A stretch of DNA of 64,000 bases. Origin: an uncultured Bacilli bacterium (GTDB lineage Bacteria > Bacillota_I > Bacilli_A > RF39 > UBA660). How positions within the stretch are numbered: the first letter of the stretch is position 1; each line of letters begins with the position of its first letter. The notes under the pieces were generated by a model, which did not search any database, had not been told where the DNA came from, and saw nothing but the letters and a program-made list of their open reading frames with translations. The position numbers were made by a program, and so were the translations under genes. Below are positions 24,567-52,048 of this stretch, piece after piece. The DNA lies in NCBI GenBank assembly GCA_947629935.1, contig CANRFQ010000004.1, positions 5,403 to 69,402 of the forward strand. The letters run 5' to 3'.

Positions 24567-25496
24567 ATGAAAAAAATAATTAATTTTTTTATAATTTTTA
24601 TTTGTGTAATGCTTGTTAATATCGGTCACATTTTTGCTAAAACGGAAATAGAAGTTGAAACAGATTGTGAAAAAGGTAGTACTTGTGTTATTAGTAATGA
24701 TACTTTTTCCTTTGAAATAAAATCTGTTGATTTATATGATAATCAAAACAAAAAATTAGAAACAATAAAAGATTTTACTATTGATCCTAAAGCATATAAA
24801 GCTGATGAAAGCGATTTAAAAACAACGGAAATCACCGATGTAAATATGCAAGTTTTGTTTCTTAATATGGATATACCAAATTTAAAAGATACCGTAAAAA
24901 AATATCAAAATAATGTATTTATCGGATATATTGTTATTAGCTATAAAATTGATATTGATTTAGATGGCTATAAATATACATATAAAAACAGTGCTTTAGA
25001 CACTAGCACAAAATTAAAAAATGAAACTTTTCCATCCACAGGTCAATATAAGCAGTTTTTTGTTACGTTAGATAAAGATGATAATTTCTATATGGATGAT
25101 TATTTTTATCAAAGAGATGAGGATTTTACTAGTTCTGGGAGCCTAACATTAATATATTTTTTATCTAATAATGATGTTTCTGATTCTTCTATAAATCTTT
25201 TTGATGAAGATAACTTTGTATTCTTTATAGCTAACAATGAAGAAAACGAAGATGCAACAACAATAGAAGATGATGGCCAAGATTTTGCCACGTATTACGA
25301 AAGAAATTCTCAAACAGATAATGACGCAGATATTATAGATACTCAAGAAAGTGATGAGGAAATACCCAAAGAAAAAAGTGGAGAAAGCGTTCCTCCTACT
25401 TCAGTATCAGGCATAGCTATTATATTAGTTTTAATTGTTTTGAGTGCATTATTATTTATGTATGCAAATAAAAAAATATTTAAAAGTAAAATATAA
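24567..25496 (+). CDS. Secreted acidic protein with C-terminal membrane anchor (first gene of the Tad-T4SS locus)
   Basis: Signal peptide MKKIINFFIIFICVMLVNIGHIFA, an Asp/Glu-rich C-terminal half, and a PPTSV + TM + basic tail. AGGAG RBS before ATG 24567. Confidence 0.55.
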   Translation: MKKIINFFIIFICVMLVNIGHIFAKTEIEVETDCEKGSTCVISNDTFSFEIKSVDLYDNQNKKLETIKDFTIDPKAYKADESDLKTTEITDVNMQVLFLNMDIPNLKDTVKKYQNNVFIGYIVISYKIDIDLDGYKYTYKNSALDTSTKLKNETFPSTGQYKQFFVTLDKDDNFYMDDYFYQRDEDFTSSGSLTLIYFLSNNDVSDSSINLFDEDNFVFFIANNEENEDATTIEDDGQDFATYYERNSQTDNDADIIDTQESDEEIPKEKSGESVPPTSVSGIAIILVLIVLSALLFMYANKKIFKSKI

Positions 25497-25518
25497 AAAA
25501 TATTAATTAAAAAAAGTT

Positions 25519-25553
25519 ACAAATTCTATAAAAATGTTGGAATTTGTTTTTTC
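25519..25553 (+). terminator. Rho-independent terminator
   Basis: Stem ACAAATTC/GAATTTGT with a 13-nt loop, followed by TTTTT. Confidence 0.5.
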
Positions 25554-25594
25554 TTATGATATACTTTTTTTAGAAAATATAGGAAGGTGTCCTA

Positions 25595-26305
25595 ATGAAA
25601 AATATATTTAATTACCTATTGTTTTTTCTTATAAGCTTTACAATTATATTTATTTTTCCAAAAGCTGATAGTTGTAATTATAAAGAACAAGCTGCTTTAA
25701 ATAAAGAAGCTAAGAATGTAACATTTAATTATGAAATAGTTGATAAACTAGATGAACTTAACAGCAAAGAGAATCCTTCACAATATAATATAAGGGATTA
25801 TTATTATATTCAAATGAATTTAACTAATATAACAGATAACTTATATGTGGAAATAACAAATAATCAAAATGATGAAAAATTAACTTATTATAGTTCAGAT
25901 TTAGTTGATGGAGTTGTGTCTTTTAAAGCAAATAATGATAAAGTTGTCACTTATACTTTAAACATATATGCCCAAACAGATACATGTTCTAGAAAATTAA
26001 TGACAAGAACAGTAAAATCCCCTAAATTTAATACTTTTTATCATAGAGGAATGTGTATAGACGTACCAGAATATAAATATTGTCAAGAAGTAATAACTTC
26101 CGAAATGGATGATAATAAAATTGGTAAAAGTATAACTAATTACTATAATAAACAAATGGCTAATCAAAAGCAAGAAACTCAAAAAGAAAAAAATAATATA
26201 AAGAAATATTTAATAATTGGCAGTATTGTATTAGGAAGTATAATCGTAATTGGAGGTATTATTTTAATAATTGTTAAAATAATGAGAAAGAGGAGAGGTA
26301 TATGA
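25595..26305 (+). CDS. Secreted protein with C-terminal TM anchor, unknown function
   Basis: Signal peptide, a C-terminal TM plus RKRRGI tail, and a GGAAGG RBS. ATGA overlap with the next gene. Confidence 0.55.
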   Translation: MKNIFNYLLFFLISFTIIFIFPKADSCNYKEQAALNKEAKNVTFNYEIVDKLDELNSKENPSQYNIRDYYYIQMNLTNITDNLYVEITNNQNDEKLTYYSSDLVDGVVSFKANNDKVVTYTLNIYAQTDTCSRKLMTRTVKSPKFNTFYHRGMCIDVPEYKYCQEVITSEMDDNKIGKSITNYYNKQMANQKQETQKEKNNIKKYLIIGSIVLGSIIVIGGIILIIVKIMRKRRGI

Positions 26306-29300
26306 AAAGAAGTTTAATTGTAATAGTTACTTTTTTATCTTTCTTTTTGATGTGTAATGGGGTAAAAGCCGGAGAAAATGATAATTATGACTCAAATCGT
26401 GACTCCTATGCTTGCGCTAATGAAAATGTTTTTTCAGAATTACTACAACGGGATAGTAAATATTGGTCTTTGCCAGGTCTATGGGTATGTTTATTGGAGG
26501 GTGATTGTAATCGACAACATCTTTATTCCTCATTACAAGCGGACATAACGGTAAAGAATTTAAATGAAACTAAAAATAAGTATTGTGCTGATTTGAACTT
26601 AACTTCGGGATTGAATGAATTTTCAGATTTATATAAAGTTACGCGTTTCGATGGTGGTGATTTTTCGAATCGAATAGACATTCAACAAGATATCCAAGAT
26701 AATAATATATGTACTTATTGTAGTAAAAATCCAGGTGATTCACGATGTGCTGAGCATCCCGAATGTGACGTTGCAAGCTATAAAATAGGCGAAAAAAGTT
26801 GTGGACATTGGGTTCCTGATGATCAAATTACCGATGAAGACATGTCTACTATATATTATCAAGATCAAAAACAATGTTATCTAGAAATAGCCTATTCCAA
26901 TGATGGCCAACCATCATATTACTATGCATCCCTAGGGCCAAAAATAAAACAATCAGTTATTAATACAGGTCAATATACTTACGTTCTTGATATGGGATAT
27001 ATTAACAAGTATTCTAAATGTAATGTTGATTATTATAATATTTATACAACTGCTGAATGTGATAAAATGAGCGGTTATGAACCACAAAGGGTTGATAATA
27101 TTAAATCACTTCTAGCGGGAATATTACAGATAAACGAAAGTGATATTGGCAATAAAAATGATAGTGACAATAATAAAAAATATATAATTGAAGATGTTGC
27201 ACATTTAGGAACAGATGGAGATAATTATTGGTTTCAACTTAGTGATGAAAATGCTAAATTGCCCGATGAAGTAACTCCTCAAAATATGATTTATAATTTT
27301 AATGAATGGACAGCACTTAAAGCTTTTCTTCCTATGGATAACGCAAAAATTTCTGGTAATAGTGTTACTGAGTTTTACACAAAAAGCACAGATGGAAGTG
27401 GAAAAATAAAATCAGGTAGTTGGTTAGACCAAGCTCAAGATAATGTAAATAAATATGGCTTAAATACTAAAAGTCTTCTAGCATTTTATACGTATGGGGA
27501 TAGTATGTTATTTGGTGTAAACTCTTGGGGGCGCAAAGTTTATACTCCTTTTGTTTACAAATTAAGAAATACTCATCCTAACTGTACTTATGATGAAGAA
27601 AATGACACCTTTTATGGTGGATTTGGAAAAATTGATTTAGATAATAATGAAACATATAAAAATGGTTATGAATATTATAATGAAAATTACGGTATCACTA
27701 AAGACAGATACATTCAAGAAACTTTTATTGATGAATGCTTATGTGATACAGCTAATGGAAAAATTAAAGATAAGAATTTGGCTGATAATACGTTGAAATA
27801 TATTACTGATTCTAATGCAAGAGAGCATTACAATGAATATTGTGGTATAGAAACGGAAGGAAGAATATGCAAGCCATATGTAGATACAGCTCCTTGTACT
27901 GGAGCACTTACTGTTAGTGATGATGAAGACTGTATTTTTGATGAAGTTTTAAATGAAGATAAAATAAGTTCTAGCATATATTCTGGAGGCGATTCTGATG
28001 AAGAAAGTCAACGTCACTATTATACGACAGCTACGAATGAATACTGTAATATCTCCTGCGCGGAAAAAATCGATTTTGTATTTCCAAAGTGGGAAAATGA
28101 TATAAAAGCTGGAACATATTGGCAATGGCAGTCTACCCAAATTAATTCAACAGGAACGCGTACCTGCGCGGCTACTATAAATATGGGAAAATTTAGTGAT
28201 AGAGTTACTAAAACAGATAGCAGTACTAGCACTAAGGATATCTTAGAGGATATAATAACCGTTTCTAATAGTCAATTTAAGTATAAAGATAATGATAAAT
28301 ACAGTTATAAACAGCAAAATGACGCTTTAAAAGAATTATATGATAGTATTGACGATAGTTATGACTATACTGACAGTGATTTATGTAGTTGTGATGAATA
28401 TGGTAATAATTGCGATGTCCATTATAACTGGGATATAAAAGTTGATTTAATCGATAAAACATTTAGTAACTCCGGAAGTTGTGGTAATAGTTCAACTATT
28501 GGATCATCAAGTTTGAAAAGTAATGGAATAGCATTATCTCAATTGAAAAAAACAGCTGAAAAAGCGATTAAAACTACTGGTACAGCTATAGAGGTAGAAT
28601 TAGGAAAACTAAAAATTTGTACAGATTCATTTAATGCCGATAAAGAATCAACATATGATTTCGATCCAGACATTAAATTTAGTTATGATGAAGATTACAA
28701 AACACACTTTAGCGGTAGATATTATACTAAGTCTACAGTAGAAGGCAGCAAATCTGGCGCCGATTTTGATAATACTGATATTCTTTACTATAATGATGAT
28801 GCGGATGCGGAGAGTCCGGAACAGATTAATTATGATTATATAGACTGTACTAACAATATTTGTCAATTGAAAGCTACTGAAACTAAACAGATTACTACAT
28901 ATACTTCACCAATAAGTTTTTTCACTGCATTTCCATCTGGGGTTATTACTGTCCTAAATGGAGGAAATTATTACGACCTTAATAATAATAATAATCCAAA
29001 TAGCCAATCATTAGGTGATAACATTTATCCTATAGCATTAAATAGAGATGCTGGTACATATGGCTATTCATTTACCGTTTCGGGCTTGGGAGATAGGGAT
29101 CTTGCTACTAGTAATAATAGTAATAGATCTCCAAATAACAATGTTGGTAGACTAGATCGCCTTATAAAAGAAGATACCAGAACATATGTCTGTGAGTATA
29201 GTGTTATTAATGATGTTACAACCCCTGATAAACCTAATTTCTTTTATCGCAATATTTCTGTGAATAATTTTGACCCTAATAATAGGGAAAGTAAAGATAA

Positions 29301-29718
29301 ACTTGGAAAAAATTGGACTACAGAAAAAGGAAAAGCTACGCAGTGTGAAATAGAAGGTGGAACGTATAATCAAAGTACGGGATGTACGGGTAGTTCAGTT
29401 CCCGAAGACATGAATGTAGAATATTCATTTACTTTAACTCCGACTAATATGCAAAATATACATAAATATAATTTAGAACAGGAAACAGGCACAAAAAAAG
29501 GATATGGTGATTTTAGAATGACGAAAGTTGGAACAGATATTACTGATAAAAATGGTGCCACTTTAAGTGAAGGTCTTTGGTATACTAGTGATTTTATAAG
29601 AACAGATATATGTGACGATTGTTTTTCAAAAAAGGATATAAATGATGTAAGCGATGCGTTTGCGAAATGGACTAAAGATGTAAACAAACTATCTGGTAAT
29701 GGTCCTGCCTGGAAATAG
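26302..29718 (+). CDS. Giant (1138 aa) secreted cysteine-rich protein, no recognisable domain or anchor
   Basis: Signal peptide MKRSLIVIVTFLSFFLMCNGVKA, roughly 35 Cys spread along the chain, and no LPXTG or TM at the C-terminus. Translationally coupled to the upstream gene. Confidence 0.6.
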   Translation: MKRSLIVIVTFLSFFLMCNGVKAGENDNYDSNRDSYACANENVFSELLQRDSKYWSLPGLWVCLLEGDCNRQHLYSSLQADITVKNLNETKNKYCADLNLTSGLNEFSDLYKVTRFDGGDFSNRIDIQQDIQDNNICTYCSKNPGDSRCAEHPECDVASYKIGEKSCGHWVPDDQITDEDMSTIYYQDQKQCYLEIAYSNDGQPSYYYASLGPKIKQSVINTGQYTYVLDMGYINKYSKCNVDYYNIYTTAECDKMSGYEPQRVDNIKSLLAGILQINESDIGNKNDSDNNKKYIIEDVAHLGTDGDNYWFQLSDENAKLPDEVTPQNMIYNFNEWTALKAFLPMDNAKISGNSVTEFYTKSTDGSGKIKSGSWLDQAQDNVNKYGLNTKSLLAFYTYGDSMLFGVNSWGRKVYTPFVYKLRNTHPNCTYDEENDTFYGGFGKIDLDNNETYKNGYEYYNENYGITKDRYIQETFIDECLCDTANGKIKDKNLADNTLKYITDSNAREHYNEYCGIETEGRICKPYVDTAPCTGALTVSDDEDCIFDEVLNEDKISSSIYSGGDSDEESQRHYYTTATNEYCNISCAEKIDFVFPKWENDIKAGTYWQWQSTQINSTGTRTCAATINMGKFSDRVTKTDSSTSTKDILEDIITVSNSQFKYKDNDKYSYKQQNDALKELYDSIDDSYDYTDSDLCSCDEYGNNCDVHYNWDIKVDLIDKTFSNSGSCGNSSTIGSSSLKSNGIALSQLKKTAEKAIKTTGTAIEVELGKLKICTDSFNADKESTYDFDPDIKFSYDEDYKTHFSGRYYTKSTVEGSKSGADFDNTDILYYNDDADAESPEQINYDYIDCTNNICQLKATETKQITTYTSPISFFTAFPSGVITVLNGGNYYDLNNNNNPNSQSLGDNIYPIALNRDAGTYGYSFTVSGLGDRDLATSNNSNRSPNNNVGRLDRLIKEDTRTYVCEYSVINDVTTPDKPNFFYRNISVNNFDPNNRESKDKLGKNWTTEKGKATQCEIEGGTYNQSTGCTGSSVPEDMNVEYSFTLTPTNMQNIHKYNLEQETGTKKGYGDFRMTKVGTDITDKNGATLSEGLWYTSDFIRTDICDDCFSKKDINDVSDAFAKWTKDVNKLSGNGPAWK

Positions 29719-29730: not shown

Positions 29731-30138
29731 ATGAAAGAATCTTATTGGGGATATTGGTTGATTCTTTTAGGAATTTTTGTTATAGTTATAATGATGTTAA
29801 TAAATAGTGTGACAACATCTACTACTCAAGATTACTATTTGATAAAAGAAACAACAGAGGCCGCTATGGTAGACGCCGTGGATTATGGCTATTATCGAGA
29901 ATATGGAGAGCTTAGGATTAATAAAGAAAAGTTTGTGGAAAACTTTTTAAGAAGATTTTCAGAGACGGTTAATATTAATAAAACATATGATATTGACTTT
30001 TATGATATTTATGAAGCTCCCCCTAAAGTAAGTGTAAAAGTTACTACTAATAGTGGGACATATGTTGTAGGTTCATCAAGTGGGAATTATGATATTACAA
30101 ATAAAATTGATGCTGTATTAGAAATGAATGAGAATTAG
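29731..30138 (+). CDS. TadE-like pseudopilin
   Basis: N-terminus MKESYWG followed by the hydrophobic helix YWLILLGIFVIVIMMLI. Size and beta-rich C-terminus resemble TadE/TadF. Shares the M-K/R-E-S/A leader with the other pilin-like genes. Confidence 0.5.
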   Translation: MKESYWGYWLILLGIFVIVIMMLINSVTTSTTQDYYLIKETTEAAMVDAVDYGYYREYGELRINKEKFVENFLRRFSETVNINKTYDIDFYDIYEAPPKVSVKVTTNSGTYVVGSSSGNYDITNKIDAVLEMNEN

Positions 30139-30149: not shown

Positions 30150-31016
30150 ATGGGAAATTTAGTAAATTCTTTAAAAAGGTTTTTAGGAAACAAAAACACA
30201 GTTACAATTATTGGGGTGTTACTTGGCGTAGTTGTACTATATTTTGGCTATCAATGGCGTGTAAATCAAGCTGTTTCACCTATAACAGTTCCATATGCAA
30301 AACAGGAGATAACTTCCAGAACATTAATAACTGATGAAATGATAGGAACTATAGATGTTCCTCAAAGCTTAGTTAATAGTAGTAACAATATAGTTACTTC
30401 AACGGCTAATGTTGTTGGAAAATATGTAACTTATGGAGCTATAATTCCAATGAATAGTTTATTTTACAATGAACTATTAGTTGATGAAGATAAAATGCCA
30501 GATTCAGCTTTTGCTGATATACCTGATGGTTACACCATTTATAGTTTATCAGTAGATTTACATTCAACTTATGGTAATTCAATATATCCAGATAATTATA
30601 TTGATTTATATATTAAAGCAAGTGATACTGATGGTAAAACAATTTTTGGTAAGATGATTGAAAGTATCAAAGTATTAGCTGTTAAAGATTCTCAAGGTCA
30701 ACATGTATTTGAAAGTGCCACGGAAACTAGACAACCAGCAGAGTTATTATTTGCTGTACCTAATAATATGTATTCATTACTTATGAAAGCGGGATATGTT
30801 CCAGAGGGAGGAATTGAAATAATTCCAGTACCTCGTAATGCTTCATATTCAGCTAATCCTGGCGATACGCAAGTATCTAGTGAATATATTCAAGAATTTA
30901 TCTTAAATCAATCTGTTATGTTACCAGATGAAGATTCTGAAGATATTGAAACTATTCCAAATAGTGGTGATAATACCAATAATAATACAAATGATACAAA
31001 TACAAAAAAAGATTAA
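30150..31016 (+). CDS. cpaB: Flp pilus assembly protein CpaB/RcpC-like (SAF domain)
   Basis: N-terminal TM, a SAF-like segment (VPYAKQEITSRTLITDEMIGTIDVP...VVGKYVTYGAIIPMNSLF), and a beta-clip segment (GYTIYSLSVD...IYPDNYIDLYI...IKVLAVKD). Confidence 0.7.
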   Translation: MGNLVNSLKRFLGNKNTVTIIGVLLGVVVLYFGYQWRVNQAVSPITVPYAKQEITSRTLITDEMIGTIDVPQSLVNSSNNIVTSTANVVGKYVTYGAIIPMNSLFYNELLVDEDKMPDSAFADIPDGYTIYSLSVDLHSTYGNSIYPDNYIDLYIKASDTDGKTIFGKMIESIKVLAVKDSQGQHVFESATETRQPAELLFAVPNNMYSLLMKAGYVPEGGIEIIPVPRNASYSANPGDTQVSSEYIQEFILNQSVMLPDEDSEDIETIPNSGDNTNNNTNDTNTKKD

Positions 31017-45088: not shown

Positions 45089-45397
45089 ATGGAAAATTAT
45101 TTAATCCCGGCTAATTCAAAAAAGTCAAAATTAATTTTAGGATTCTTTAATCCCATTGACTTAATAATTTTTTTGATAGGCGTGGTAATAACACTAGTAT
45201 TATTATTTGTGATTAGAACTAATAATATTTTTCTAGTCATATTAATATTACTCCCGGCTTTAATTTCTGCATTCTTAGTAATGCCGGTTCCTAATTATCA
45301 TAATATGTTAACGTTATTAAATAACATATATAGCTATTTTAGTAAAAGAAAAAAGTATTATTGGAGAGGTTGGTGTGCTAATGGCAAAAAACGCTAG
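45089..45397 (+). CDS. PrgI/VirB3-like small T4SS membrane protein
   Basis: 102 aa. The N-terminus IPANSKKSKLILGFFNPIDLIIF is followed by two TM helices. It lies immediately upstream of, and overlaps, the VirB4 gene, as in Firmicute conjugation modules. Confidence 0.6.
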   Translation: MENYLIPANSKKSKLILGFFNPIDLIIFLIGVVITLVLLFVIRTNNIFLVILILLPALISAFLVMPVPNYHNMLTLLNNIYSYFSKRKKYYWRGWCANGKKR

Positions 45398-45938
45398 TAT
45401 ATCGAAATATTCTGAGGATTGGGTTCCTATTAAAAGCATCATGAATGGAATGATTGAATTAGAAAATGGCAATTATGTAACCGGAGTAAAAATAGAATCA
45501 AAAGATATTTTTATCCTTGATGCGCAAGCTCAAAATAACGTAATTTATGGAATGCGTAATTTCTATAATGCAATTGACTATGAATTTTGGTTAGTAATCG
45601 CCGATAGACCTGTAGATATTAATATCTATCTATCGCAGTTACAAGTTTTGTATTCTCATACTCCTAATCCAGAAATTAGAAAATTAATTGATCAAGATAT
45701 TAATAAAGCAAATTTATTTATGAGTAGTGAAATGAGTGTCGTAGATACTGAATATTACATTTTGTTTAAAGAAAAAAAACAAGAAATAATTCAGAAACGA
45801 ATTCACAATTTAATTACCAACTTAGCTAATGCAGGAGTAAATTCTGCTCAAGCATCTAATTCAGATTTACGCATGCTTTTAGATAATTTCTTAAATGGGG
45901 GAACAACAACTAATTTTGGGACGGTGATTAGTTCATGA
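45375..45938 (+). CDS. VirB4-like ATPase, N-terminal domain encoded as a separate ORF
   Basis: EDWVPIKSIMNGMIELENGNYVTGVKIESKDIFILD fits the N-terminal domain pattern of Gram-positive VirB4 (TcpF/ConE/Orf16 type). It ends in an ATGA overlap with the next ORF. Confidence 0.65.
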   Translation: MLMAKNASISKYSEDWVPIKSIMNGMIELENGNYVTGVKIESKDIFILDAQAQNNVIYGMRNFYNAIDYEFWLVIADRPVDINIYLSQLQVLYSHTPNPEIRKLIDQDINKANLFMSSEMSVVDTEYYILFKEKKQEIIQKRIHNLITNLANAGVNSAQASNSDLRMLLDNFLNGGTTTNFGTVISS

Positions 45939-47729: not shown

Positions 47730-49091
47730 GTGTCACAAATGCATCCAACTGATAATATGGAAAATTCAACAGAAGAAATAAATGAATCTCAACAACAAAC
47801 AGCAACTAAGGCCACAAATACTCCTAACCCTAAAATGTCTGCCCTTCAAAGTAAAGTGGCGTCTGAAGGAATAGCTATGGCCGCTAACGCTGTTGCTCCA
47901 GGTAGTGGAGTAATTGTAAAAAAAGTGTTAAAGAGTCCTGCCGGTCAAAATGCTTTAAATCAAGTAGCTAACCCTAAAATGTCCGCTCTTAAAAATAAAG
48001 TAGCATCTGAAGGAGTAGCTATGGCTGCTAATGCTGTTGCTCCAGGTAGTGGGGCAATTGTAAAAAAGTTGTTAAAGACCCCTGCCGGTCAAAATGCTTT
48101 AAATCAAATAGCTAGTCCTAAAAGAGCAAATAGTTTAGTTCCTGGTGCTATGCTAGATCTCCCTAAATCAAAGCCAACTGAGGCTAAAGAAAATTTAACG
48201 GATTCGGAAAGTGAAGCACTAGAAAATGAATTAGAAAATGATGGTGGAGATAAAGGTACTGATTTAAATGGTAATGTTAGTAAAAAAATATTGGATTTTA
48301 TTATAAAACATCCTCATGTAGCCATTGCTATAGGAGGCTTTTTAACAAGTCTTATCATGTCTTTTGTAGTTTTAATGATCTTAGCATGTTTTATGGGTTC
48401 TGATGCTAAAGCTAGTGGAGGAAATTCTAGTGGCTCAACAAATAGCGGTCATGTTAATAGCGCAACATCAACAGAAATATGCTCTCAACTCTCTGGTAAA
48501 TCTTTAAGTGATGCTTTAAGTGAACATAACACGACTATTGATGATTTTAATAATAACATTAAATCAAAGATTGAAAGTGCTGGTTTAAAAACGCGTGAAG
48601 GTGTTGTTGCGGCGGCTTTGTCTATTACTAGTGATTTATGTGAAGAATATAAAATTCGTTTACCTTATGAATGGGGTGGCGGTCATGATAGTAAAATTAG
48701 TTTAGCTAGTGGTCAGTGGGGGTCTAAGTTAGCCAGTCCAGTTTATGCCAATGATCGTTCGTATGAATATTCAGGTTTAGATTGTAGTGGCTTTGTTTCC
48801 TGGGCTATATATAATGCTGGTTATGACTTTCCTATAGAAAGTTCAGATAGTTTTTCAAATTATGGAACACTTCACTCTATGAATTCCAGTTTTATAGCCA
48901 AACCTGGCGACTTAATTTTTCATCCCGGACACATTATGATGATTGTCGGAGTTGATGAGGGAACAAAATTATATAAAGTAGCAGAGGCAGCAGGAGCTGA
49001 TGAGGGTATGCACGTCCGAACCATGTCCTTTGATAATGATTCTAACCAGATTATAGATATGACTAATTACTACAGTAGAGGAGGAGCTTAG
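47730..49091 (+). CDS. T4SS-associated cell-wall hydrolase (NlpC/P60 domain) with repeated N-terminal domain and central TM
   Basis: The C-terminal YSGLDCSGFVSWAIYNAG...GDLIFHPGHIMMIVG gives the NlpC/P60 Cys and His. TM segment IAIGGFLTSLIMSFVVLMILACFMG. Two 48-aa tandem repeats near the N-terminus. Confidence 0.8.
   Translation: MSQMHPTDNMENSTEEINESQQQTATKATNTPNPKMSALQSKVASEGIAMAANAVAPGSGVIVKKVLKSPAGQNALNQVANPKMSALKNKVASEGVAMAANAVAPGSGAIVKKLLKTPAGQNALNQIASPKRANSLVPGAMLDLPKSKPTEAKENLTDSESEALENELENDGGDKGTDLNGNVSKKILDFIIKHPHVAIAIGGFLTSLIMSFVVLMILACFMGSDAKASGGNSSGSTNSGHVNSATSTEICSQLSGKSLSDALSEHNTTIDDFNNNIKSKIESAGLKTREGVVAAALSITSDLCEEYKIRLPYEWGGGHDSKISLASGQWGSKLASPVYANDRSYEYSGLDCSGFVSWAIYNAGYDFPIESSDSFSNYGTLHSMNSSFIAKPGDLIFHPGHIMMIVGVDEGTKLYKVAEAAGADEGMHVRTMSFDNDSNQIIDMTNYYSRGGA
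47826..48113. repeat. Tandem 144-bp (48-aa) repeat x2 inside the hydrolase gene
   Basis: NPKMSALQSKVASEGIAMAANAVAPGSGVIVKKVLKSPAGQNALNQVA is followed by NPKMSALKNKVASEGVAMAANAVAPGSGAIVKKLLKTPAGQNALNQIA. Confidence 0.9.
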
Positions 49092-49781
49092 ATGAAAAAA
49101 ATTATCTTTTTAAGTTTAGTTTTATTCATGCTATCAGGTTGTACAATAAAATATGATTTAGATTTGACAACACCTAATGCTGCTATTGAAAATTTAGAAA
49201 TATTAGAAACTGATTTTAGTAATGAGTATTTTAGTACAATTAAAAATTATACAGGAAACATTAAAGCTATCTATAGTGATCAAGATTCTGATTCTTATGA
49301 AAAAGATCCGAATTTAGAATATTATAGTGTTGTCAACAATAGTGATGATACTAAAGCTAATTTGGTAATTAGTTATCCCTTTACAACGGAGGAATTTGGT
49401 GATTCAAATATCATAAATACTTGTTATGACAATGTTTCTTTTTATAATACGGACGATAAAATAGATATTAGAACGAGTAATGAATTTTTATGTTTTGAAA
49501 AATATATATCGGCTGAAGAAGTTGAAATAAACATAAAAACAAATCAAAAAGTTCTTACTAATAATGCTGATTATGTTGAAGATAATGTCTATACTTGGAA
49601 AATAGATAAATCTAATGCTTATCAAAAACCAATAATTCTATCTAATATTGAAAATTCAACTCAAGAAGAAAAAAACGAAAATAATACTCAATTAAATTTA
49701 ATAATTATTTTAAGTGTCATTGGCGCTTTTGTAATTGCAATTATTATTGTAATTATCAATAAAAATCATAAATATAAATAG
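49092..49781 (+). CDS. Lipoprotein with additional C-terminal TM anchor, unknown function (T4SS module)
   Basis: Lipobox LSGC at residues 14-17 and a C-terminal TM LIIILSVIGAFVIAIIIVII. The start codon abuts the stop of the upstream gene. Confidence 0.6.
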   Translation: MKKIIFLSLVLFMLSGCTIKYDLDLTTPNAAIENLEILETDFSNEYFSTIKNYTGNIKAIYSDQDSDSYEKDPNLEYYSVVNNSDDTKANLVISYPFTTEEFGDSNIINTCYDNVSFYNTDDKIDIRTSNEFLCFEKYISAEEVEINIKTNQKVLTNNADYVEDNVYTWKIDKSNAYQKPIILSNIENSTQEEKNENNTQLNLIIILSVIGAFVIAIIIVIINKNHKYK

Positions 49782-49834
49782 TATTTAAGAAAAAAATATT
49801 GTATAATAAAATTAAGAAATATGGAGGAAAAGTT

Positions 49835-52048
49835 ATGAAATTTCGAATATCACCTAAAGATTTAATAATTTTTATCATTTTTTGTATATTTTTATTCTAT
49901 CTTTGTGCGATTGCAGTTTTAAATTTTTCCTCATTTGGTATGACTGGAACTTTTTACGGTCTAAATCCTCTTGAAGCTTTTACAGCTAAATATTTACCAA
50001 TAACTTTTGTAATGTTTGCCATTGTTTTAATTATTATTTTTGCAAGTGTTTCATCATATATTTTTGATAAAGAAAAAGGTAAGGGTGTCGGTATTACCGT
50101 AAAGAAAAAAGAGGAAAATGAATATTCACGTTTTGCGACTGACAAAGAAATGAAAAATGCTTTTGGTGTTAAAAAAATTTTTATTACTGATGATAAAACG
50201 GATGCTGCAGGCGTTGTTTTAATGATGAACAAAAAAGAATGGTATGTCGATAATAGTGAAAACCATACGTTGGTAGTTGGAGCAACAGCTTCCGGAAAAA
50301 CTACCAGTGTAGTTGACCCTTTAGTAATGTCATTAGCTAAAAAAGGCGAAAGTATGGTTTTAACGGATCCTAAAGGTGAAATCTATAAAAATCATGCAGC
50401 TATGCTTAAAGAAAAAGGCTATAATGTAATAGTTTTAAATTTCCGTGATCCTGTTAAGGGTAGTTCTTGGAATCCTTTAACCTTACCTTATCAACTTTAT
50501 AAAGATGGTAATGTTGATAAAGCAACAGAACTTCTAGAAGACGTAGCTAATAATATCTTAAAAGAGAAAAATAGCAATGCCGATCCATTCTGGCAAAACT
50601 CGGCTGCCGATTATTTTTCTGGGTGTGTATTAGGTTTATTTGAAGATGGTAAAGAAGAAGAAATTAATATAAATTCGATTTATACTATGACAACGCAAGG
50701 AGAGGAACGTTTTGCTACTTCGACTTTCATTAAAGAATACTTTACGATGAAAGGTGAAAATTCTTCGCCATATATTTTTGCAGCTAATGTTATCAATGCT
50801 CCTAAAGAAACTCAAGGTGGTCAACTTTCTACTTTTAGACAGAAGATTCGTATCTTTGCTGCGCAGAAGAATCTAAGTGAAATGTTATCATTTACCGATT
50901 TTGACATGCGTAATATTGGTAAAGAAAAATCTGCAGTTTTCATTGTTATCCATGATGAAAAAACTACTTATCATGCTTTAGCAACCATTTTTATTAAACA
51001 ACTATACGAAACCCTAATTGATGAAGCTTATAAGCAAGCCAATGGACGTTTAAAGTATCGTACTAATTTTATTCTTGATGAGTTTGCTAATATGCCCCCT
51101 TTAAAAGATGTCACAAGTATGGTTACTGCAGCGCGTAGTCGTGATATTCGTTTTACATTTATTATTCAGAACTTTGCTCAATTAAATGATGTTTATGGGG
51201 AAAATGATGCTCAAACAATTCGTTCTAACTGTGGTAACTTAATTTATTTATTGACAACAGAATTAAAAGCTTTAGAGGAAATTAGTAAATTGTGTGGTGT
51301 TAAAAAACCCAAAGATAAAGATAAAGCTTTATCCGAAAAACCTTTAGTTACGGTTACCGATTTACAAAAAATGAAAATGAATGAAGTTATCATTCTTAAA
51401 GCTCGTATGAATCCTTTTAAAACAAAATTAGTACCTTCTTACAATCAAGAAGGAATGATAAAGTATGAAAAATCCGAATTTTATACTAGACCTATAAAAA
51501 CTGTAAAAATATTTGATATAAAAGAATTTGTTAAAGAAGAAAAAAGAAAAAAGATGTCAGAAGACATGGAAAATGGCAATGCGCATGGTATGATGCCAAA
51601 TGGTATGTTTGGTATGCCTAACCCTAGCTTTGGAGGACCAATGGGAATGCCTAATCAAATGGGCATGCCGCCATTTGGTAGTAATCTTGCTAACAAAACG
51701 CCAATGGATATTGATGCGATGATCAAAGACATCGACGCGCAAATAGCTAAATTAGAAAAAGAAGAAGAAGAGAAAAAACGTCAAGAAATGGAACAAAAGC
51801 AAAAAGAACGTCCAACCTTTGAAATGCCTAAATTAGAAGAAAAACCGAAAATAGCGGAAGAACCGAAAATAACTATTCCCACTTTTGATTTAAAAAATAT
51901 GATGGAAGATGAGAAAATACCAGAAATGCCAAAAGAAGCAAAACCCGAGACACAACCAAACATTAAAGTGGATAACGATAGTGTAATTGTTGATGAACAC
52001 ATAGTTTCTGATGATGAATTTTTTGATGATTTCTTTGGTGATGATTAG
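49835..52048 (+). CDS. VirD4/TraG-type type IV coupling protein with long low-complexity C-terminal tail
   Basis: Two N-terminal TM segments, Walker A VVGATASGKTT, Walker B FILDEFANM, and FTFIIQNFAQL. GGAGG RBS before ATG 49835. The tail is Met/Gly/Pro-rich and ends in DDEFFDDFFGDD. Confidence 0.85.
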   Translation: MKFRISPKDLIIFIIFCIFLFYLCAIAVLNFSSFGMTGTFYGLNPLEAFTAKYLPITFVMFAIVLIIIFASVSSYIFDKEKGKGVGITVKKKEENEYSRFATDKEMKNAFGVKKIFITDDKTDAAGVVLMMNKKEWYVDNSENHTLVVGATASGKTTSVVDPLVMSLAKKGESMVLTDPKGEIYKNHAAMLKEKGYNVIVLNFRDPVKGSSWNPLTLPYQLYKDGNVDKATELLEDVANNILKEKNSNADPFWQNSAADYFSGCVLGLFEDGKEEEININSIYTMTTQGEERFATSTFIKEYFTMKGENSSPYIFAANVINAPKETQGGQLSTFRQKIRIFAAQKNLSEMLSFTDFDMRNIGKEKSAVFIVIHDEKTTYHALATIFIKQLYETLIDEAYKQANGRLKYRTNFILDEFANMPPLKDVTSMVTAARSRDIRFTFIIQNFAQLNDVYGENDAQTIRSNCGNLIYLLTTELKALEEISKLCGVKKPKDKDKALSEKPLVTVTDLQKMKMNEVIILKARMNPFKTKLVPSYNQEGMIKYEKSEFYTRPIKTVKIFDIKEFVKEEKRKKMSEDMENGNAHGMMPNGMFGMPNPSFGGPMGMPNQMGMPPFGSNLANKTPMDIDAMIKDIDAQIAKLEKEEEEKKRQEMEQKQKERPTFEMPKLEEKPKIAEEPKITIPTFDLKNMMEDEKIPEMPKEAKPETQPNIKVDNDSVIVDEHIVSDDEFFDDFFGDD

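What the first reader, a model, noticed from the sequence alone, without database searches (positions are those of the whole stretch)
24567..52048. Chromosomal super-locus fusing a Tad/Flp-like pilus module to a Gram-positive VirB4/VirB6/VirD4 secretion module, with no relaxase or integrase
Seen in sequence:
- About 25 consecutive + strand ORFs, mostly separated by fewer than 25 nt or overlapping.
- First half: TadE-like (29731), CpaB SAF-domain protein (30150), CpaF/TadA ATPase with all four motifs (31033), two T2SS-F platform proteins (32579, 33472), Flp-like pilins (37814, 38199, 38520), two more TadE-like proteins (38767, 39283) and a TadZ-like MinD-fold protein (39819).
- Second half: two VirB2/TrbC-like proteins (40899, 41450), VirB6-like (42498), PrgI/VirB3-like (45089), VirB4 (45375 + 45935), NlpC/P60 hydrolase (47730), lipoprotein (49092) and VirD4 coupling protein (49835).
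- The small VirB2-like gene 40899 lies on the Tad side of the only clear internal terminator (41231-41253), so the two modules are interleaved rather than merely adjacent.
- Not seen anywhere in the 64 kb: a relaxase, an integrase, recombinase or DDE transposase near the locus, rep or par genes, or flanking direct repeats. Both flanks are housekeeping genes.

Established knowledge: described Firmicute conjugation machines (ICEBs1, Tn916, pCW3, pCF10) have no Tad-type pilus. Tad loci normally lack VirB4/VirD4. The closest precedent is the type IV thin pilus that assists the IncI1 R64 T4SS in Gram-negatives.

Inference: this could be a domesticated composite machine, with a pilus for contact or retraction and a T4SS channel. 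Possible roles are relaxase-independent DNA exchange or uptake, or contact-dependent protein delivery. It may represent an undescribed architecture.
Basis: partly seen in the sequence, partly recalled or inferred. Interest (0 to 1): 0.85.

Follow-up and report, generated by a model that had tools for sequence, protein, structure and literature searches.

The report
Domesticated conjugation-like machine in RF39 bacteria
This 27-kb gene cluster is a chromosomal copy, lacking any DNA-processing gene, of the conjugation machine of Bacillus plasmid pLS20 (pilus-like motor module plus type IV secretion channel), kept under strong selection across the uncultured gut order RF39, which suggests these reduced-genome bacteria use it for something other than plasmid transfer.

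Summary
The gene run is real. About 25 co-directional ORFs encode a secretion-ATPase/pilin-like module followed by a Gram-positive type IV secretion system (T4SS): VirB2-like, VirB6-like, VirB3, TrsD, VirB4, hydrolase, lipoprotein, VirD4. No relaxase, integrase or transposase was found in the 64 kb, or by tblastn in 2.6 Mb around 165 related loci.

The organism belongs to the uncultured gut order RF39. At least 452 species genomes carry the central gene. Core genes have dN/dS of 0.04-0.14, so this is a maintained system, not a decayed integrative conjugative element (ICE).

The two halves are adjacent in about 57% of relatives and lie apart in the rest.

The architecture is not unprecedented. 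RF39 family profiles match the pLS20-type conjugation operon in gene order (g36, g37 'VirB11', g38, g39, g40, VirD4, VirB4). Bacillus badius pPM400 and a Mycoplasmatota plasmid also combine a Tad-like module with a T4SS.

Direct profile tests fail for T2SS-F, Flp and TadE. The pilin-like genes carry a non-canonical, nearly invariant 'MKEATGELN' N-terminus.

Best reading: an exapted pLS20-type machine, paralleling the relaxase-less T4SS of Patescibacteria. Its substrate is unknown.

Novelty: a new variant of a known kind.

The parts
24525..25496 (+). Secreted acidic protein with a C-terminal membrane anchor. It is variable and its membership of the system is uncertain.
   Evidence: Signal peptide and C-terminal TM helix read from the translation. 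No Pfam family. No tblastn match in the related loci.
25595..26305 (+). Small surface protein with a signal peptide and a C-terminal TM anchor, recurring upstream of the module.
   Evidence: Homologs at 22-53% identity upstream of DUF5411 in 9 loci. No Pfam family above threshold.
26302..29718 (+). 1138-aa Cys-rich secreted protein, fast-evolving. Candidate adhesin, in the position of pLS20 g34 (Tie).
   Evidence: No Pfam or NCBIfam hit. Only 23-37% identical in relatives. A large ORF occupies the same position in L019. The adhesin role is inferred from position.
29731..30138 (+). DUF5411 protein with a pilin-like N-terminus ('MKESYWGYW' followed by a hydrophobic helix). Homolog of pLS20 g36.
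   Evidence: PF17424 E 5e-60. RF39 profile against g36 E 5e-7. DUF5411 co-occurs with CpaF and PilC in Clostridia (PMC9523054). dN/dS 0.06-0.10.
30150..31016 (+). CpaB/RcpC-like SAF-domain protein.
   Evidence: PF16976 E 2e-5 and TIGR03177 E 2e-8, both below cutoff. RF39 profile against the SAF protein of plasmid CP074574.1 E 9e-7.
31033..32562 (+). Secretion-superfamily ATPase (CpaF/VirB11/FlaI clade). Closest relative found is pLS20 g37 'VirB11' (orthology inferred from score and gene order).
   Evidence: PF00437 E 5e-27. PDB: CpaF 2e-16, VirB11 2e-15. Best plasmid hits are the CpaF/VirB11 family of Bacillus, Listeria and Enterococcus plasmids. Profile against g37 2e-53, 172 bits, compared with 76 bits for the CpaF of CP074574.1.
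32579..33472 (+). Polytopic membrane protein, candidate platform subunit (g38-like, TadB position).
   Evidence: Profile against pLS20 g38 E 1e-4, and against a B. badius T2SS-F family protein E 4e-3. No Pfam T2SSF hit. AF2 pLDDT 59 with no fold match. dN/dS 0.04-0.07.
33472..34260 (+). Polytopic membrane protein, candidate platform subunit (g39-like, TadC position).
   Evidence: Profile against pLS20 g39 E 1e-5, and against B. badius 'type II secretion system F family protein' WP_041098533.1 E 1.9e-8. No direct Pfam or PDB hit.
34339..36852 (+). YfhO-family membrane glycosyltransferase. A lineage-specific insertion, not a core part.
   Evidence: PF09586 E 1.6e-145. Absent from most RF39 loci.
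36813..37781 (+). GT2 glycosyltransferase, partner of YfhO. A lineage-specific insertion.
   Evidence: PF00535 E 1e-25. Absent from most RF39 loci.
37814..38041 (+). Pilin-like paralog that lacks the conserved leader.
   Evidence: Shares 87 nt at 89% identity with 38199. N-terminus is 'MKFYKINNELNMTV'. A terminator-like hairpin follows at 38068-38090.
38199..38474 (+). Pilin-like protein: 'MKEATGELNMTV' followed by a hydrophobic helix and a Cys-rich tail.
   Evidence: The N-terminus is nearly invariant across RF39 loci. No Pfam Flp hit; 5 of 69 orthologs weakly match archaeal Pilin_N. Profile against the Flp-like QVK19771 E 3.5e-3.
38520..38756 (+). Second pilin-like protein ('MREATGELNMSV').
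   Evidence: Profile against QVK19771 E 3.4e-4 and against the B. badius 55-aa protein ('MGEHKGAITLSL') E 1.2e-3. dN/dS 0.24-0.53.
38767..39273 (+). Minor pilin-like protein ('MRESIGSAG' followed by a hydrophobic helix), g40-like.
   Evidence: Profile against pLS20 g40 E 4e-4 and against the B. badius 118-aa protein E 2.7e-6. No Pfam TadE hit.
39283..39795 (+). Second minor pilin-like protein ('MRESIGGAW').
   Evidence: Profile against g40 E 2e-3. N-terminus conserved.
39819..40847 (+). Two-domain TadZ-like protein: an alpha/beta N-domain plus a MinD/ParA-class NTPase domain with a degenerate P-loop ('TDHAGSTT').
   Evidence: AF2 pLDDT 73. Foldseek: HypB/ParA/MinD at E about 1e-4, and E. rectale TadZ 3fkq at E 4.5e-3 over the full length. 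More than 6000 homologs, and at least 452 species genomes. dN/dS 0.08-0.11.
40899..41234 (+). VirB2-like T4SS pilin (two-TM hairpin).
   Evidence: 33 of 42 orthologs hit PF18895 (best 1.4e-7) and 13 hit T4SS_CagC. It lies 50-150 nt after the TadZ-like gene in most of the 42 loci.
41450..42478 (+). Secreted Gly-rich protein ending in a VirB2-like hairpin. Variable.
   Evidence: Its C-terminus is paralogous to 40899 (E 8e-9). Only 35-67% identical in the closest relatives.
42498..45077 (+). VirB6-like polytopic channel protein with a long C-terminal coiled region.
   Evidence: Weak hit to NF045889, a mycoplasma ICE TM protein (E 4e-4). phmmer against the TrbL_4 protein of CP074574.1 E 7e-5. Position before VirB3-TrsD-VirB4 is conserved. 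No PDB hit.
45089..45397 (+). VirB3/PrgI-like small membrane protein.
   Evidence: TcpE E 2e-3 and PrgI E 7e-3. Aligns to residues 2-96 of the mycoplasma ICE VirB4 model. Profile against QVK19761 E 4e-10.
45375..45938 (+). TrsD-like protein, equivalent to the N-terminal domain of VirB4 as a separate gene.
   Evidence: Aligns to residues 98-276 of NF045975 (E 6e-15). Orthologs carry PF26593 TraC-like. dN/dS 0.05-0.11. TrsD is described in PMC12102498.
45935..47719 (+). VirB4 ATPase.
   Evidence: NF045975 E 1e-103, plus AAA_10 and P-loop_TraG. RF39 copies are 80-95% identical. One 50% cluster, then a gap to 45% or less. dN/dS 0.05-0.07.
47730..49091 (+). Cell-wall hydrolase in the VirB1 role, with an NlpC/P60 domain and an internal 144-nt tandem repeat.
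   Evidence: PF00877 E 7.5e-7. The catalytic domain differs between lineages (M23 plus lysozyme in L086). Repeat at 47824-48111.
49092..49781 (+). Lipoprotein with a C-terminal TM helix, in the VirB8-like position.
   Evidence: LPAM signal. Profile against the B. badius 191-aa lipoprotein E 6e-4. dN/dS 0.39-0.49. The VirB8 fold was not tested.
49799..52048 (+). VirD4 coupling protein with a low-complexity C-terminal tail.
   Evidence: PF02534 E 2e-50. NF045973 297 bits, above its cutoff of 250. Found downstream of VirB4 in 37 of 42 loci.
52119..52373 (+). Small rhodanese-domain protein, a conserved downstream neighbour. Role unknown.
   Evidence: PF00581 E 8e-10. Follows VirD4 in L085, L086 and 29 of 42 metagenome loci.

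Best explanation
The locus is a vertically inherited, chromosomal descendant of a pLS20-type Gram-positive conjugation apparatus. It has kept the whole envelope machine and has no DNA-processing or mobility genes nearby.

**Shown by tool results**
- Gene content and gene-for-gene homology with pLS20-type operons.
- Spread across the order RF39.
- Purifying selection on the core genes.
- No relaxase, integrase, primase or SSB found near the locus.

**Inferred mechanism**
- The g37-like hexameric ATPase (31033), docked on the two polytopic proteins (32579, 33472) and placed by the TadZ-like protein (39819) and the CpaB-like protein (30150), polymerises the 'MKEATG'-leader pilin-like subunits and minor subunits. 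These are 38199, 38520, 38767, 39283 and DUF5411 at 29731.
- The product is a short pilus or pseudopilus that crosses the wall. Together with the large variable surface proteins, it makes contact with a partner cell.
- The hydrolase opens the peptidoglycan.
- VirB6, VirB3, TrsD/VirB4, the lipoprotein and the VirB2-like proteins form the membrane channel.
- VirD4 selects a cytoplasmic substrate and feeds it to the channel.

**Substrate**
- VirD4 is retained and no relaxase was found nearby. The most likely cargo is therefore protein, or another non-relaxase-bound cargo, delivered to or exchanged with neighbouring cells.
- This would serve the dependent lifestyle of a bacterium with a genome of roughly 1.2 Mb or less, as the relaxase-less T4SS does in Patescibacteria.
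For: - **Homology with pLS20-type operons, in order.** RF39 profile matches:
  - DUF5411 to g36, E 5e-7
  - ATPase to g37, E 2e-53
  - 32579 to g38, E 1e-4
  - 33472 to g39, E 1e-5
  - minor pilins to g40, E 4e-4
  - VirD4 to g48, E 3e-63
  - VirB4 to g52, E 7e-42
- **Same composite on other plasmids.** B. badius pPM400 carries a MobP2 relaxase with it. Mycoplasmatota plasmid CP074574.1 also has it.
- **Order-wide presence.** At least 452 species genomes, all named as uncultured Bacilli, Tenericutes or Ca. Coprovivens. Coprovivens belongs to RF39 (PMC8035907).
- **Gene order** is conserved in most 21-kb loci.
- **RF39 VirB4 forms one tight clade.** One 50% cluster, with the next relatives at 45% or less. 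The nearest named relatives sit in true mobile elements: a T. ramosa ICE with a serine recombinase, and a Mycoplasmatota plasmid.
- **Selection.** dN/dS is 0.04-0.14 for cytoplasmic and membrane core genes and 0.24-0.5 for exposed parts, with dS of about 1.
- **No mobility genes.** None in the window, none in L085 or L086, and none by tblastn with four relaxases, a primase, an SSB and two recombinases in 2.6 Mb of RF39 loci.
- **No att-like repeats** and no G+C deviation from the flanks.
- **Modules can lie apart between housekeeping genes** (L019; L145 next to RecG), which fits resident chromosomal genes.
- **Precedent for exaptation.** Patescibacteria have a relaxase-less MPF_FATA-derived T4SS with TrsD and VirB2-like pilins, and T4SS genes are essential for epibiotic growth in Saccharimonadia (PMC12102498).
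Against: - No complete RF39 genome could be scanned, so a relaxase, an oriT or a prepilin peptidase elsewhere in the chromosome is not excluded.
- The tblastn relaxase screen covers only MobP2, MobL and one candidate, at low sensitivity.
- Whether genomes with unlinked modules keep both modules was not shown directly.
- The pilus reading is weak in three ways. The platform proteins fail direct T2SS-F tests. The pilin motif is non-canonical. No filament has been reported for pLS20 in the papers I read.
- The substrate and the partner cell are pure inference.
- VirD4 retention also fits DNA transfer.
Confidence: 0.6

Rival explanations
1. It is still a working DNA conjugation system. A relaxase and oriT elsewhere in the chromosome act in trans, so the machine moves chromosomal DNA between RF39 cells.
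For: - VirD4 with its TraG-D_C domain is retained and conserved.
- All close relatives of the machine on plasmids and ICEs are conjugative.
Against: - No relaxase, primase, SSB or topoisomerase in the window or within 10 kb of 165 related loci.
- In pLS20, pPM400 and L168 the relaxase lies within the transfer cluster, beside the T4CP only in L168, but it does not here.
Confidence: 0.2
2. It is a DNA-uptake (competence-like) machine, analogous to the H. pylori ComB system or the archaeal Ced/Ted systems. DNA would be imported for nucleotides or repair.
For: - Relaxase-less and chromosomal, with a pilus-like module beside a VirB4/VirB6 channel.
- Weak CedD and CedB matches for VirB4 and VirD4.
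- The reduced genome implies scavenging (PMC6784871).
Against: - The CedB and CedD matches are far below their cutoffs.
- A VirD4-type coupling protein that recruits cytoplasmic substrates is conserved in 37 of 42 loci. From my own knowledge, not tested here, ComB works without one.
- No ComEC-like or DNA-binding component lies in the locus.
Confidence: 0.1
3. It is a decayed or cryptic ICE or integrated plasmid whose relaxase and integrase were lost recently, with no current function.
For: The nearest outside relatives are mobile elements. Some loci have a serine recombinase a few kb away (L059).
Against: - All genes are intact.
- dN/dS is 0.04-0.14 at a dS of about 1.
- Present in at least 452 species.
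- VirB4 is 71-95% identical across the order.
- No att repeats and no compositional anomaly.
Confidence: 0.04
4. These are two unrelated systems, an adhesive Tad-type pilus and a T4SS, that merely happen to lie side by side.
For: They are separated in about 43% of relatives from either side. Relatives of the T4SS exist without any such ATPase (T. ramosa ICE and L168).
Against: - The same pairing recurs on at least three unrelated plasmid types, inside a single transfer operon.
- A T4SS-type VirB2-like pilin gene is fixed directly after the TadZ-like gene.
- In pPM400 the ATPase and the proteins annotated as T2SS-F family sit between VirD4 and VirB6.
Confidence: 0.06

Closest known systems
pLS20-family conjugation operon of Bacillus plasmids (MPF_FATA T4SS with a 'VirB11' ATPase; Val-Calvo et al. 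2021, PMC8557374)
   Same: Collinear and homologous core:
- adhesin position
- g36 (DUF5411-like)
- g37 ATPase
- g38 and g39 membrane proteins
- g40-like small TM proteins
- a VirB2-like hairpin (g45; linked to RF39 40899 by position and shared annotation only, no significant profile match)
- VirB6, VirB3, TrsD-like, VirB4, a C40/NlpC hydrolase and a CD1115-family VirD4
   Different: - The RF39 locus is chromosomal.
- It has no MobP2 relaxase, auxiliary proteins, oriT region, SSB, primase, Rco/Rap/Phr control or surface-exclusion gene.
- VirD4 lies at the end of the cluster instead of before VirB6.
- RF39 adds CpaB-like and TadZ-like genes and 2-3 pilin-like genes with an 'MKEATG' leader.
Chromosomal relaxase-less T4SS of Patescibacteria/CPR (Quinonero-Coronel et al. 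2025, PMC12102498)
   Same: - Reduced-genome, uncultured bacteria.
- MPF_FATA-derived VirB4 with a separate TrsD, PrgI/VirB3, VirB6 and VirB2-like pilin genes.
- Chromosomal, widespread in the lineage, and lacking a relaxase, which implies exaptation.
   Different: - A different phylum and a separate VirB4 lineage. The nearest relatives here are Erysipelotrichales and Mycoplasmatota elements.
- In Patescibacteria VirD4 is rarely near virB4, and the type IV pilus genes are not reported as part of the locus. Here VirD4 and the pilus-like module are usually in the same gene run.
Tad/Flp pilus systems (tadZABC-flp-tadEF, CpaB/RcpC)
   Same: - A CpaF/TadA-clade ATPase followed by two polytopic membrane proteins.
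- A CpaB-like SAF protein.
- A two-domain MinD/ParA-class protein.
- Several small proteins with a short charged leader ending in Gly and a hydrophobic helix.
   Different: - No G/XXXXEY motif.
- No prepilin peptidase in the window.
- No direct T2SS-F, Flp or TadE profile hit.
- The ATPase scores much higher against pLS20 'VirB11' than against CpaF.
Mycoplasmatota bacterium zrk4 plasmid CP074574.1 (98 kb, cold seep)
   Same: T4CP, VirB6 (TrbL_4), VirB3, TrsD and VirB4 directly followed by SAF, AAA (TadZ/CpaE-like), CpaF, TadB, T2SS-F, pilins, TadE-like proteins and a giant surface protein. RF39 profiles match most of these.
   Different: - It is a plasmid carrying ParM, a topoisomerase and a primase.
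- The module order is T4SS then Tad.
- Its pilins have the canonical Flp motif ('KKG/SPSLEY').
- Its ATPase is only distantly related to the RF39 one (76 bits).
IncI1 R64 thin pilus plus T4SS
   Same: A type IV filament assists a conjugative T4SS.
   Different: R64 is a Gram-negative system with a type IVb pilus (pil genes) in a separate operon, and it is not homologous in gene order. The Gram-positive plasmids above are far closer.

Membership tests
MPF_FATA (Gram-positive) type IV secretion system, pLS20/pGO1-like | VirB4-family ATPase | tested here: met
   NF045975 E 1e-103, AAA_10 and P-loop_TraG above cutoff. Profile against pLS20 g52 E 7e-42.
MPF_FATA (Gram-positive) type IV secretion system, pLS20/pGO1-like | VirD4/T4CP coupling protein | tested here: met
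   PF02534 E 2e-50. NF045973 (CD1115 family) 297 bits, above its cutoff of 250.
MPF_FATA (Gram-positive) type IV secretion system, pLS20/pGO1-like | Separate TrsD (VirB4 N-domain-like) and VirB3/PrgI genes upstream of virB4 | tested here: met
   45089 and 45375 align collinearly to residues 2-96 and 98-276 of a full-length VirB4 model. Orthologs carry PF26593. PrgI and TcpE hits are weak.
MPF_FATA (Gram-positive) type IV secretion system, pLS20/pGO1-like | VirB6-like polytopic channel protein | tested here: inconclusive
   Only weak matches: NF045889 E 4e-4, TrbL_4 protein E 7e-5, hhalign 29%. Position is conserved.
MPF_FATA (Gram-positive) type IV secretion system, pLS20/pGO1-like | Dedicated cell-wall hydrolase (VirB1 role) | tested here: met
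   NlpC/P60 E 7.5e-7, above cutoff. M23 plus lysozyme at the same position in L086.
Self-transmissible conjugative element (ICE or plasmid) | Relaxase (MOB) gene with the transfer genes | tested here: not met
   None among the window ORFs by Pfam. None in L085 or L086. No tblastn hit with MobP2 (two versions), MobL or QVK19741 in 2.6 Mb of RF39 loci. Whole genomes were not scanned.
Self-transmissible conjugative element (ICE or plasmid) | Integrase or recombinase and flanking att repeats, or replication/partition genes | tested here: not met
   No integrase, transposase, or plasmid rep/par gene in the 64 kb; the DnaB_2/DnaI-like pair at 60901-63071 (with below-cutoff Bac_DnaA and IstB_IS21 P-loop matches on 62193-63071) was read as chromosomal replication genes. 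Only imperfect chance repeats span the locus. G+C content matches the flanks.
Tad/Flp pilus (type IV filament superfamily) | TadA/CpaF-type secretion ATPase | tested here: met
   Pfam T2SSE above cutoff. CpaF is the best solved relative. The subfamily is ambiguous: VirB11 is the best NCBIfam hit and all NCBIfam hits are below cutoff.
Tad/Flp pilus (type IV filament superfamily) | TadB/TadC platform proteins with a T2SS-F domain | tested here: inconclusive
   No PF00482 hit in the window proteins or in 32 orthologs. No PDB profile hit. AF2 pLDDT 59. Indirect link only: 33472 profile against a B. badius protein annotated as T2SS-F family E 1.9e-8, and 32579 E 4e-3.
Tad/Flp pilus (type IV filament superfamily) | Flp prepilin with a G/XXXXEY cleavage motif, and a TadV/CpaA prepilin peptidase | tested here: not met
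   The N-termini read 'MKEATG/ELNMTV', with no EY. No Flp_Fap hit. No Peptidase_A24 in the 64 kb. The rest of the genome could not be tested.
Tad/Flp pilus (type IV filament superfamily) | TadZ/CpaE (receiver-like N-domain plus atypical MinD/ParA ATPase) | tested here: inconclusive
   The AF2 model has two domains. The C-domain matches HypB, ParA and MinD at E about 1e-4. TadZ 3fkq ranks only 47th (E 4.5e-3, TM 0.31). No sequence-profile hit.
Tad/Flp pilus (type IV filament superfamily) | CpaB/RcpC | tested here: inconclusive
   TIGR03177 E 2e-8 but 34 bits against a cutoff of 71. PF16976 24.8 bits against a cutoff of 28.8. Profile against a plasmid SAF protein E 9e-7.
Exapted relaxase-less T4SS (Patescibacteria type) | Chromosomal, lineage-wide, no relaxase, MPF_FATA-like VirB4 with TrsD and VirB2-like pilins | tested here: met
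   This is a functional analogy, not common descent: the VirB4 neighbours here are Erysipelotrichales and Mycoplasmatota elements.

The most novel reading that the evidence does not exclude
RF39 bacteria may be obligate partners (epibionts or parasites) of other gut cells. In this reading the conserved pilus-plus-T4SS machine is their essential contact and transfer organelle, delivering effectors or extracting lipids, nucleotides or other building blocks they cannot make. That would be a convergent Firmicute counterpart of the Saccharibacteria T4SS and type IV pilus.

A corollary is that the homologous g36-g41 genes of pLS20-type plasmids would build the long-missing 'conjugative pilus' of Gram-positive bacteria.
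Probability: 0.2. Interest if true: 0.9.

Novelty: new variant of a known kind. Interest (0 to 1): 0.62.

Why it matters
- **RF39 biology.** RF39 is widespread in the human gut, uncultured and heavily auxotrophic; for example, it has no fatty-acid synthesis (PMC6784871). A machine of at least 20 kb, kept under strong purifying selection in genomes of roughly 1.2 Mb or less, is likely central to how these cells live. It gives a concrete target for co-culture and imaging experiments.
- **T4SS evolution.** This would be a second, independent case, after Patescibacteria, of a monoderm conjugation apparatus turned into a resident organelle in a reduced-genome lineage.
- **Gram-positive conjugation.** The comparison shows that the unknown genes g36, g38, g39 and g40 next to the 'VirB11' of pLS20 have RF39 homologs that resemble a type IV filament module. 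It also shows that pLS20 g45 matches a B. badius protein annotated as a pilin. This makes the old question of how Gram-positive donors make mating contact without a pilus testable in a tractable organism.

Tried and rejected
- **PDB profile or sequence searches.** The TadB-like, TadC-like, TadZ-like, VirB2-like, VirB6-like and CpaB-like proteins gave nothing significant.
- **AF2 of the TadB-like protein.** Only close homologs (74% identity or more) were allowed in the alignment. The model had pLDDT 59 and the Foldseek matches were meaningless.
- **hhalign.** TadB-like against TadC-like gave E 0.038 at 1.4% probability, which is not significant. Comparisons with the zrk4 plasmid TadB/T2SS-F proteins were weak.
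- **Pfam on 32 platform orthologs and 69 pilin-like orthologs.** No T2SSF, Flp or TadE hits.
- **Exact-protein look-ups of window flank genes.** Two found nothing and two returned only 1.5-2.8 kb contigs.
- **Candidate relaxase on the zrk4 plasmid.** QVK19741 against MobL was not significant, showing only a shared His-motif resemblance.
- **Literature.** No paper in the library describes this system in RF39.
- **Decayed ICE: rejected.** See dN/dS and prevalence.
- **Broken VirB4 pseudogene: rejected.** The split is conserved and is the TrsD arrangement.
- **Chance adjacency: rejected.** The pairing recurs on plasmids.

Full report
**1. What is in the sequence**

Between 24525 and 52048 every ORF of useful size lies on the + strand. 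Most gaps are under 25 nt or the ORFs overlap. The larger gaps are at 38042-38198 and 41235-41449. G+C content is about 22-35% and does not differ from the flanks.

Profile searches give firm identities for these genes:
- 29731: DUF5411, E 5e-60.
- 31033: T2SSE secretion ATPase, E 5e-27.
- 34339: YfhO, E 1.6e-145.
- 36813: GT2 glycosyltransferase.
- 45935: VirB4.
- 47730: NlpC/P60 hydrolase.
- 49799: VirD4, CD1115 family, above the curated cutoff.

Sub-threshold but consistent matches exist for 30150 (CpaB/RcpC) and 45089 (PrgI/TcpE). 45089, 45375 and 45935 align one after another to residues 2-96, 98-276 and 294-891 of a full-length mycoplasma-ICE VirB4 model.

The 'split VirB4' is therefore the VirB3 + TrsD + VirB4 arrangement described for the pGO1 subclass and for Patescibacteria (PMC12102498). 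It is conserved: the 120 best VirB4 homologs are 583-595 aa long. Orthologs of 45375 carry PF26593 TraC-like.

**2. What is not in the sequence**

Pfam scans of the ORFs of 100 aa or more outside the locus found no relaxase, integrase, transposase, plasmid rep/par gene or prepilin peptidase. The flanks encode LepA, a HemN-like enzyme, UvdE, VanY, EzrA, a DnaB_2/DnaI-like pair and ribosomal protein S4.

The only direct repeats that bracket the locus are imperfect matches inside A+T-rich coding DNA. The 'terminator' at 41231-41253 is a seven-pair A+T hairpin followed by eight T. It is not more stable than shuffled sequence, and the terminator scan did not report it.

**3. Whose genome it is, and how widespread the locus is**

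VirB4 and the central 342-aa protein (39819) each have thousands of close homologs from gut metagenomes.

Nearly all of the 80 listed records are named uncultured Bacilli, Tenericutes, Mollicutes, 'Mycoplasma sp. CAG:776' or Candidatus Coprovivens, Caccenecus or Ventrenecus; several carry the label uncultured Muribaculaceae or Erysipelotrichaceae. The best match is a rabbit-gut metagenome-assembled genome at 99%.

Coprovivens is assigned to order RF39 (PMC8035907). RF39 is the reduced-genome, heavily auxotrophic gut lineage highlighted by Nayfach et al. (PMC6784871).

In the 21-kb loci the order is kept in most species: DUF5411, CpaB-like, ATPase, two membrane proteins, pilin-like genes, two minor pilin-like genes, 39819-like, VirB2-like, (variable), VirB6-like, VirB3, TrsD, VirB4, hydrolase, lipoprotein, VirD4. 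YfhO and GT2 are a lineage-specific insertion.

**4. Linkage of the two halves**

- Of 46 species loci with at least 9 kb downstream of the 39819-like gene, 26 have VirB4 within 10 kb.
- Of 46 metagenome loci fetched with VirB4 and holding at least 9.5 kb upstream, 26 have the 39819-like gene within 10 kb. VirD4 follows VirB4 in 37 of 42 loci, and a small rhodanese gene follows in 29 of 42.
- Where the halves are apart, each sits among housekeeping genes. In L019 an aminotransferase and a glutaredoxin-domain protein follow the VirB2-like gene. In L145 RecG lies two genes upstream of VirB6.
- The adjacency is therefore frequent but not obligatory. I could not show directly that genomes with separated halves keep both.

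**5. The locus is maintained, not decaying**

I compared the window with three relatives at a synonymous divergence of about 1.
- dN/dS is 0.04-0.14 for DUF5411, the CpaB-like protein, the ATPase, both membrane proteins, the 39819 protein, TrsD and VirB4.
- dN/dS is 0.24-0.53 for the pilin-like proteins, VirB6 and the lipoprotein. This is the pattern expected for a working machine with exposed, fast-evolving parts.

At 50% clustering, all RF39 VirB4 fall into one cluster. Two clusters follow at 43-45% identity, and the rest are at 35% or less.

tblastn with two MobP2 relaxases, a MobL relaxase, a candidate relaxase, a primase, an SSB, a DUF3991 protein, a pLS20 auxiliary protein and two serine recombinases found nothing in 2.6 Mb of RF39 sequence around 165 loci. 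The one exception was the recombinase of L059 matching itself.

**6. The decisive comparison: Gram-positive conjugative plasmids**

The nearest named VirB4 relatives outside RF39 are in Thomasclavelia ramosa/Coprobacillus, Solobacterium and a plasmid of a Mycoplasmatota bacterium.

- *T. ramosa.* The copy lies in a true ICE with SSB, a Toprim primase and a serine recombinase. It has the same VirB6-VirB3-TrsD-VirB4-hydrolase order, but SpaA/sortase pili and no secretion ATPase.
- *Mycoplasmatota plasmid CP074574.1.* It carries T4CP, ParM, a topoisomerase and VirB6-VirB3-TrsD-VirB4. Directly after these come a SAF protein, a TadZ/CpaE-like AAA protein, CpaF, TadB, a protein annotated as T2SS-F family, two pilins with the canonical Flp motif ('MKKILKSKKG/SPSLEY'), TadE-like proteins and a 1650-aa protein.
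- *Best plasmid matches of the RF39 ATPase.* tblastn against 72,556 plasmids gave the 'CpaF/VirB11 family' proteins of Bacillus (pLS20 family), Listeria and Enterococcus plasmids.

RF39 family profiles match a pLS20-like plasmid in gene order:

| RF39 gene | pLS20-like gene | E-value |
|---|---|---|
| DUF5411 (29731) | g36 | 5e-7 |
| ATPase (31033) | g37 | 2e-53 (172 bits; the plasmid CpaF of CP074574.1 scores 76) |
| 32579 | g38 | 1e-4 |
| 33472 | g39 | 1e-5 |
| 38767 / 39283 | g40 | 4e-4 / 2e-3 |
| VirD4 (49799) | g48 | 3e-63 |
| VirB4 (45935) | g52 | 7e-42 |

In Bacillus badius pPM400 the ATPase is flanked by two proteins that NCBI annotates as T2SS-F family. It lies between VirD4 and VirB6 in a cluster that ends with a MobP2 relaxase. 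The 33472 profile matches one of these proteins at E 1.9e-8, and 32579 matches the other at E 4e-3.

**7. How far the 'Tad' label holds**

For:
- The ATPase belongs to the CpaF/VirB11/FlaI clade.
- A CpaB-like protein is present.
- The 39819 protein has two domains, with a MinD/ParA-class fold and a degenerate but conserved P-loop. The E. rectale TadZ structure 3fkq is a weak full-length match.
- DUF5411 was linked to CpaF and PilC in Clostridia by Miller et al. (PMC9523054).
- Five small proteins have a short charged leader ending in Gly, followed by a hydrophobic helix.

Against:
- No Pfam T2SSF, Flp or TadE hit in the window proteins or in 32 and 69 orthologs.
- No PDB profile hit.
- The AF2 model of 32579 was too poor to use.
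- The pilin-like N-terminus 'MKEATGELN(M/L)TV' is almost invariant across RF39 but is not the Flp G/XXXXEY motif.
- No prepilin peptidase lies in the window.

I therefore describe it as a type-IV-filament-like module of the pLS20 kind, not as a member of the Tad family.

The VirB2-like call for 40899 is sound at family level. 33 of 42 orthologs hit PF18895 T4SS_pilin and 13 hit T4SS_CagC. The C-terminus of 41450 is a paralog.

**8. Most likely mechanism**

Shown: a complete set of envelope-machine genes homologous to a conjugation apparatus, conserved and under selection, with no DNA-processing genes nearby.

Inferred:
- The ATPase, platform, TadZ-like and CpaB-like proteins assemble the pilin-like subunits into a short wall-spanning filament.
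- With the large variable surface proteins (25595, 26302), this filament mediates contact with another cell.
- The hydrolase opens the wall.
- VirB6, VirB3, TrsD-VirB4, the lipoprotein and the VirB2-like proteins form the channel.
- VirD4 brings in the substrate.

VirD4 is kept while no relaxase was found nearby. I therefore favour protein or other non-relaxase cargo exchanged with neighbouring cells. The closest analogy is the relaxase-less T4SS of Patescibacteria, whose T4SS genes are essential for epibiotic growth in Saccharimonadia (PMC12102498).

Chromosomal DNA transfer with a relaxase encoded elsewhere, and DNA uptake, remain open. A decayed ICE and chance adjacency are disfavoured.

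**9. Novelty and score**

The claim of an unprecedented architecture is not supported. The composite is inherent to a family of Gram-positive conjugative plasmids, although none of the papers I read describes it as a pilus module.

Three things appear undescribed in the literature I searched:
- An order-wide, chromosomal, relaxase-less version in RF39.
- Its added CpaB-like and TadZ-like genes and its invariant non-canonical pilin leader.
- The link it reveals to pLS20 g36-g41.

I rate it a new variant of a known kind, interest 0.62.

The main gaps are these:
- No whole RF39 genome could be scanned for a relaxase, a prepilin peptidase or co-occurrence of the modules.
- The platform fold is unproven.
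- The substrate is unknown.

Noticed in passing
window 34339-37781: A YfhO-family glycosyltransferase and a GT2 enzyme are inserted between the second membrane protein and the pilin-like genes. The insertion is present only in this lineage; most RF39 loci lack it. The position suggests glycosylation of the pilin-like proteins or of a wall polymer, but this is untested.
   Followed up: partly
window 37814-38198: The first pilin-like gene lacks the conserved 'MKEATG' leader (TTG start, 'MKFYKINNELNMTV') and shares 87 nt at 89% identity with the next copy. A terminator-like hairpin (38068-38090) and a promoter-like site (38135-38163) follow it. Leaderless copies also occur in L002 and L006.
   Followed up: partly
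window 52119-52373; L085 16884-17114; L086 17308-17565: A small single-domain rhodanese gene directly follows VirD4 here, in two examined relatives and in 29 of 42 metagenome loci. The genes further downstream differ between relatives. It may belong to the operon, and its role is unknown.
   Followed up: partly
window 47824-48111: A tandem 144-nt duplication (89% identical) lies inside the N-terminal region of the hydrolase gene and encodes a repeated 48-residue segment.
   Followed up: no
window 4169-5023 (-), 10599-14710 (+), 16859-18187 (+): A sortase, three large ORFs with no family assignment, and a thioester-domain (TED) protein lie upstream of the locus. They may be sortase-dependent surface proteins. 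The adhesin Tie of pLS20 is also a thioester-domain protein.
   Followed up: no
window 23252-24461 (-): A thioredoxin-like protein and an Rce1/CAAX-protease-like membrane protein are transcribed divergently just upstream of the locus. The pilin-like proteins are Cys-rich, and lactococcal transfer clusters also carry a conserved thioredoxin-like gene (PMC10221548). No link was tested.
   Followed up: no
L083/L084 (Thomasclavelia ramosa) and L168: The nearest outside relatives of the RF39 VirB4 sit in mobile elements with the same VirB6-VirB3-TrsD-VirB4-hydrolase order. They have no secretion ATPase within 10 kb. Both carry SpaA-domain proteins (with a sortase in L083/L084), and each has a serine recombinase or a MobL relaxase.
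   Followed up: partly
L169 2876-7717 (plasmid CP074574.1): MOB-suite types the plasmid as non-mobilizable. The 576-aa protein next to its T4CP shares a 'YH...PHLH' histidine motif with a MobL relaxase, so it may be an unrecognised relaxase. The pairwise comparison was not significant (E 0.31).
   Followed up: partly
L171 18179-18491 and 19008-19244 (pLS20-like plasmid); L172 4702-4869 and 5195-5428 (B. badius pPM400): These conjugative plasmids encode Flp-sized proteins of 47-55 aa with one hydrophobic helix. One begins 'MGEHKG', like the RF39 'MKEATG' leader. They also encode a two-TM VirB2-like protein (g45, annotated 'pilin' in pPM400). The pLS20 papers I read list these genes as unknown.
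   Followed up: partly
L059 2015-3724 (-): In 'Mycoplasma sp. CAG:776' the pilin/TadZ-like block stands alone. Neither the ATPase module nor the T4SS lies within 10 kb. A large serine recombinase lies 6 kb upstream.
   Followed up: no
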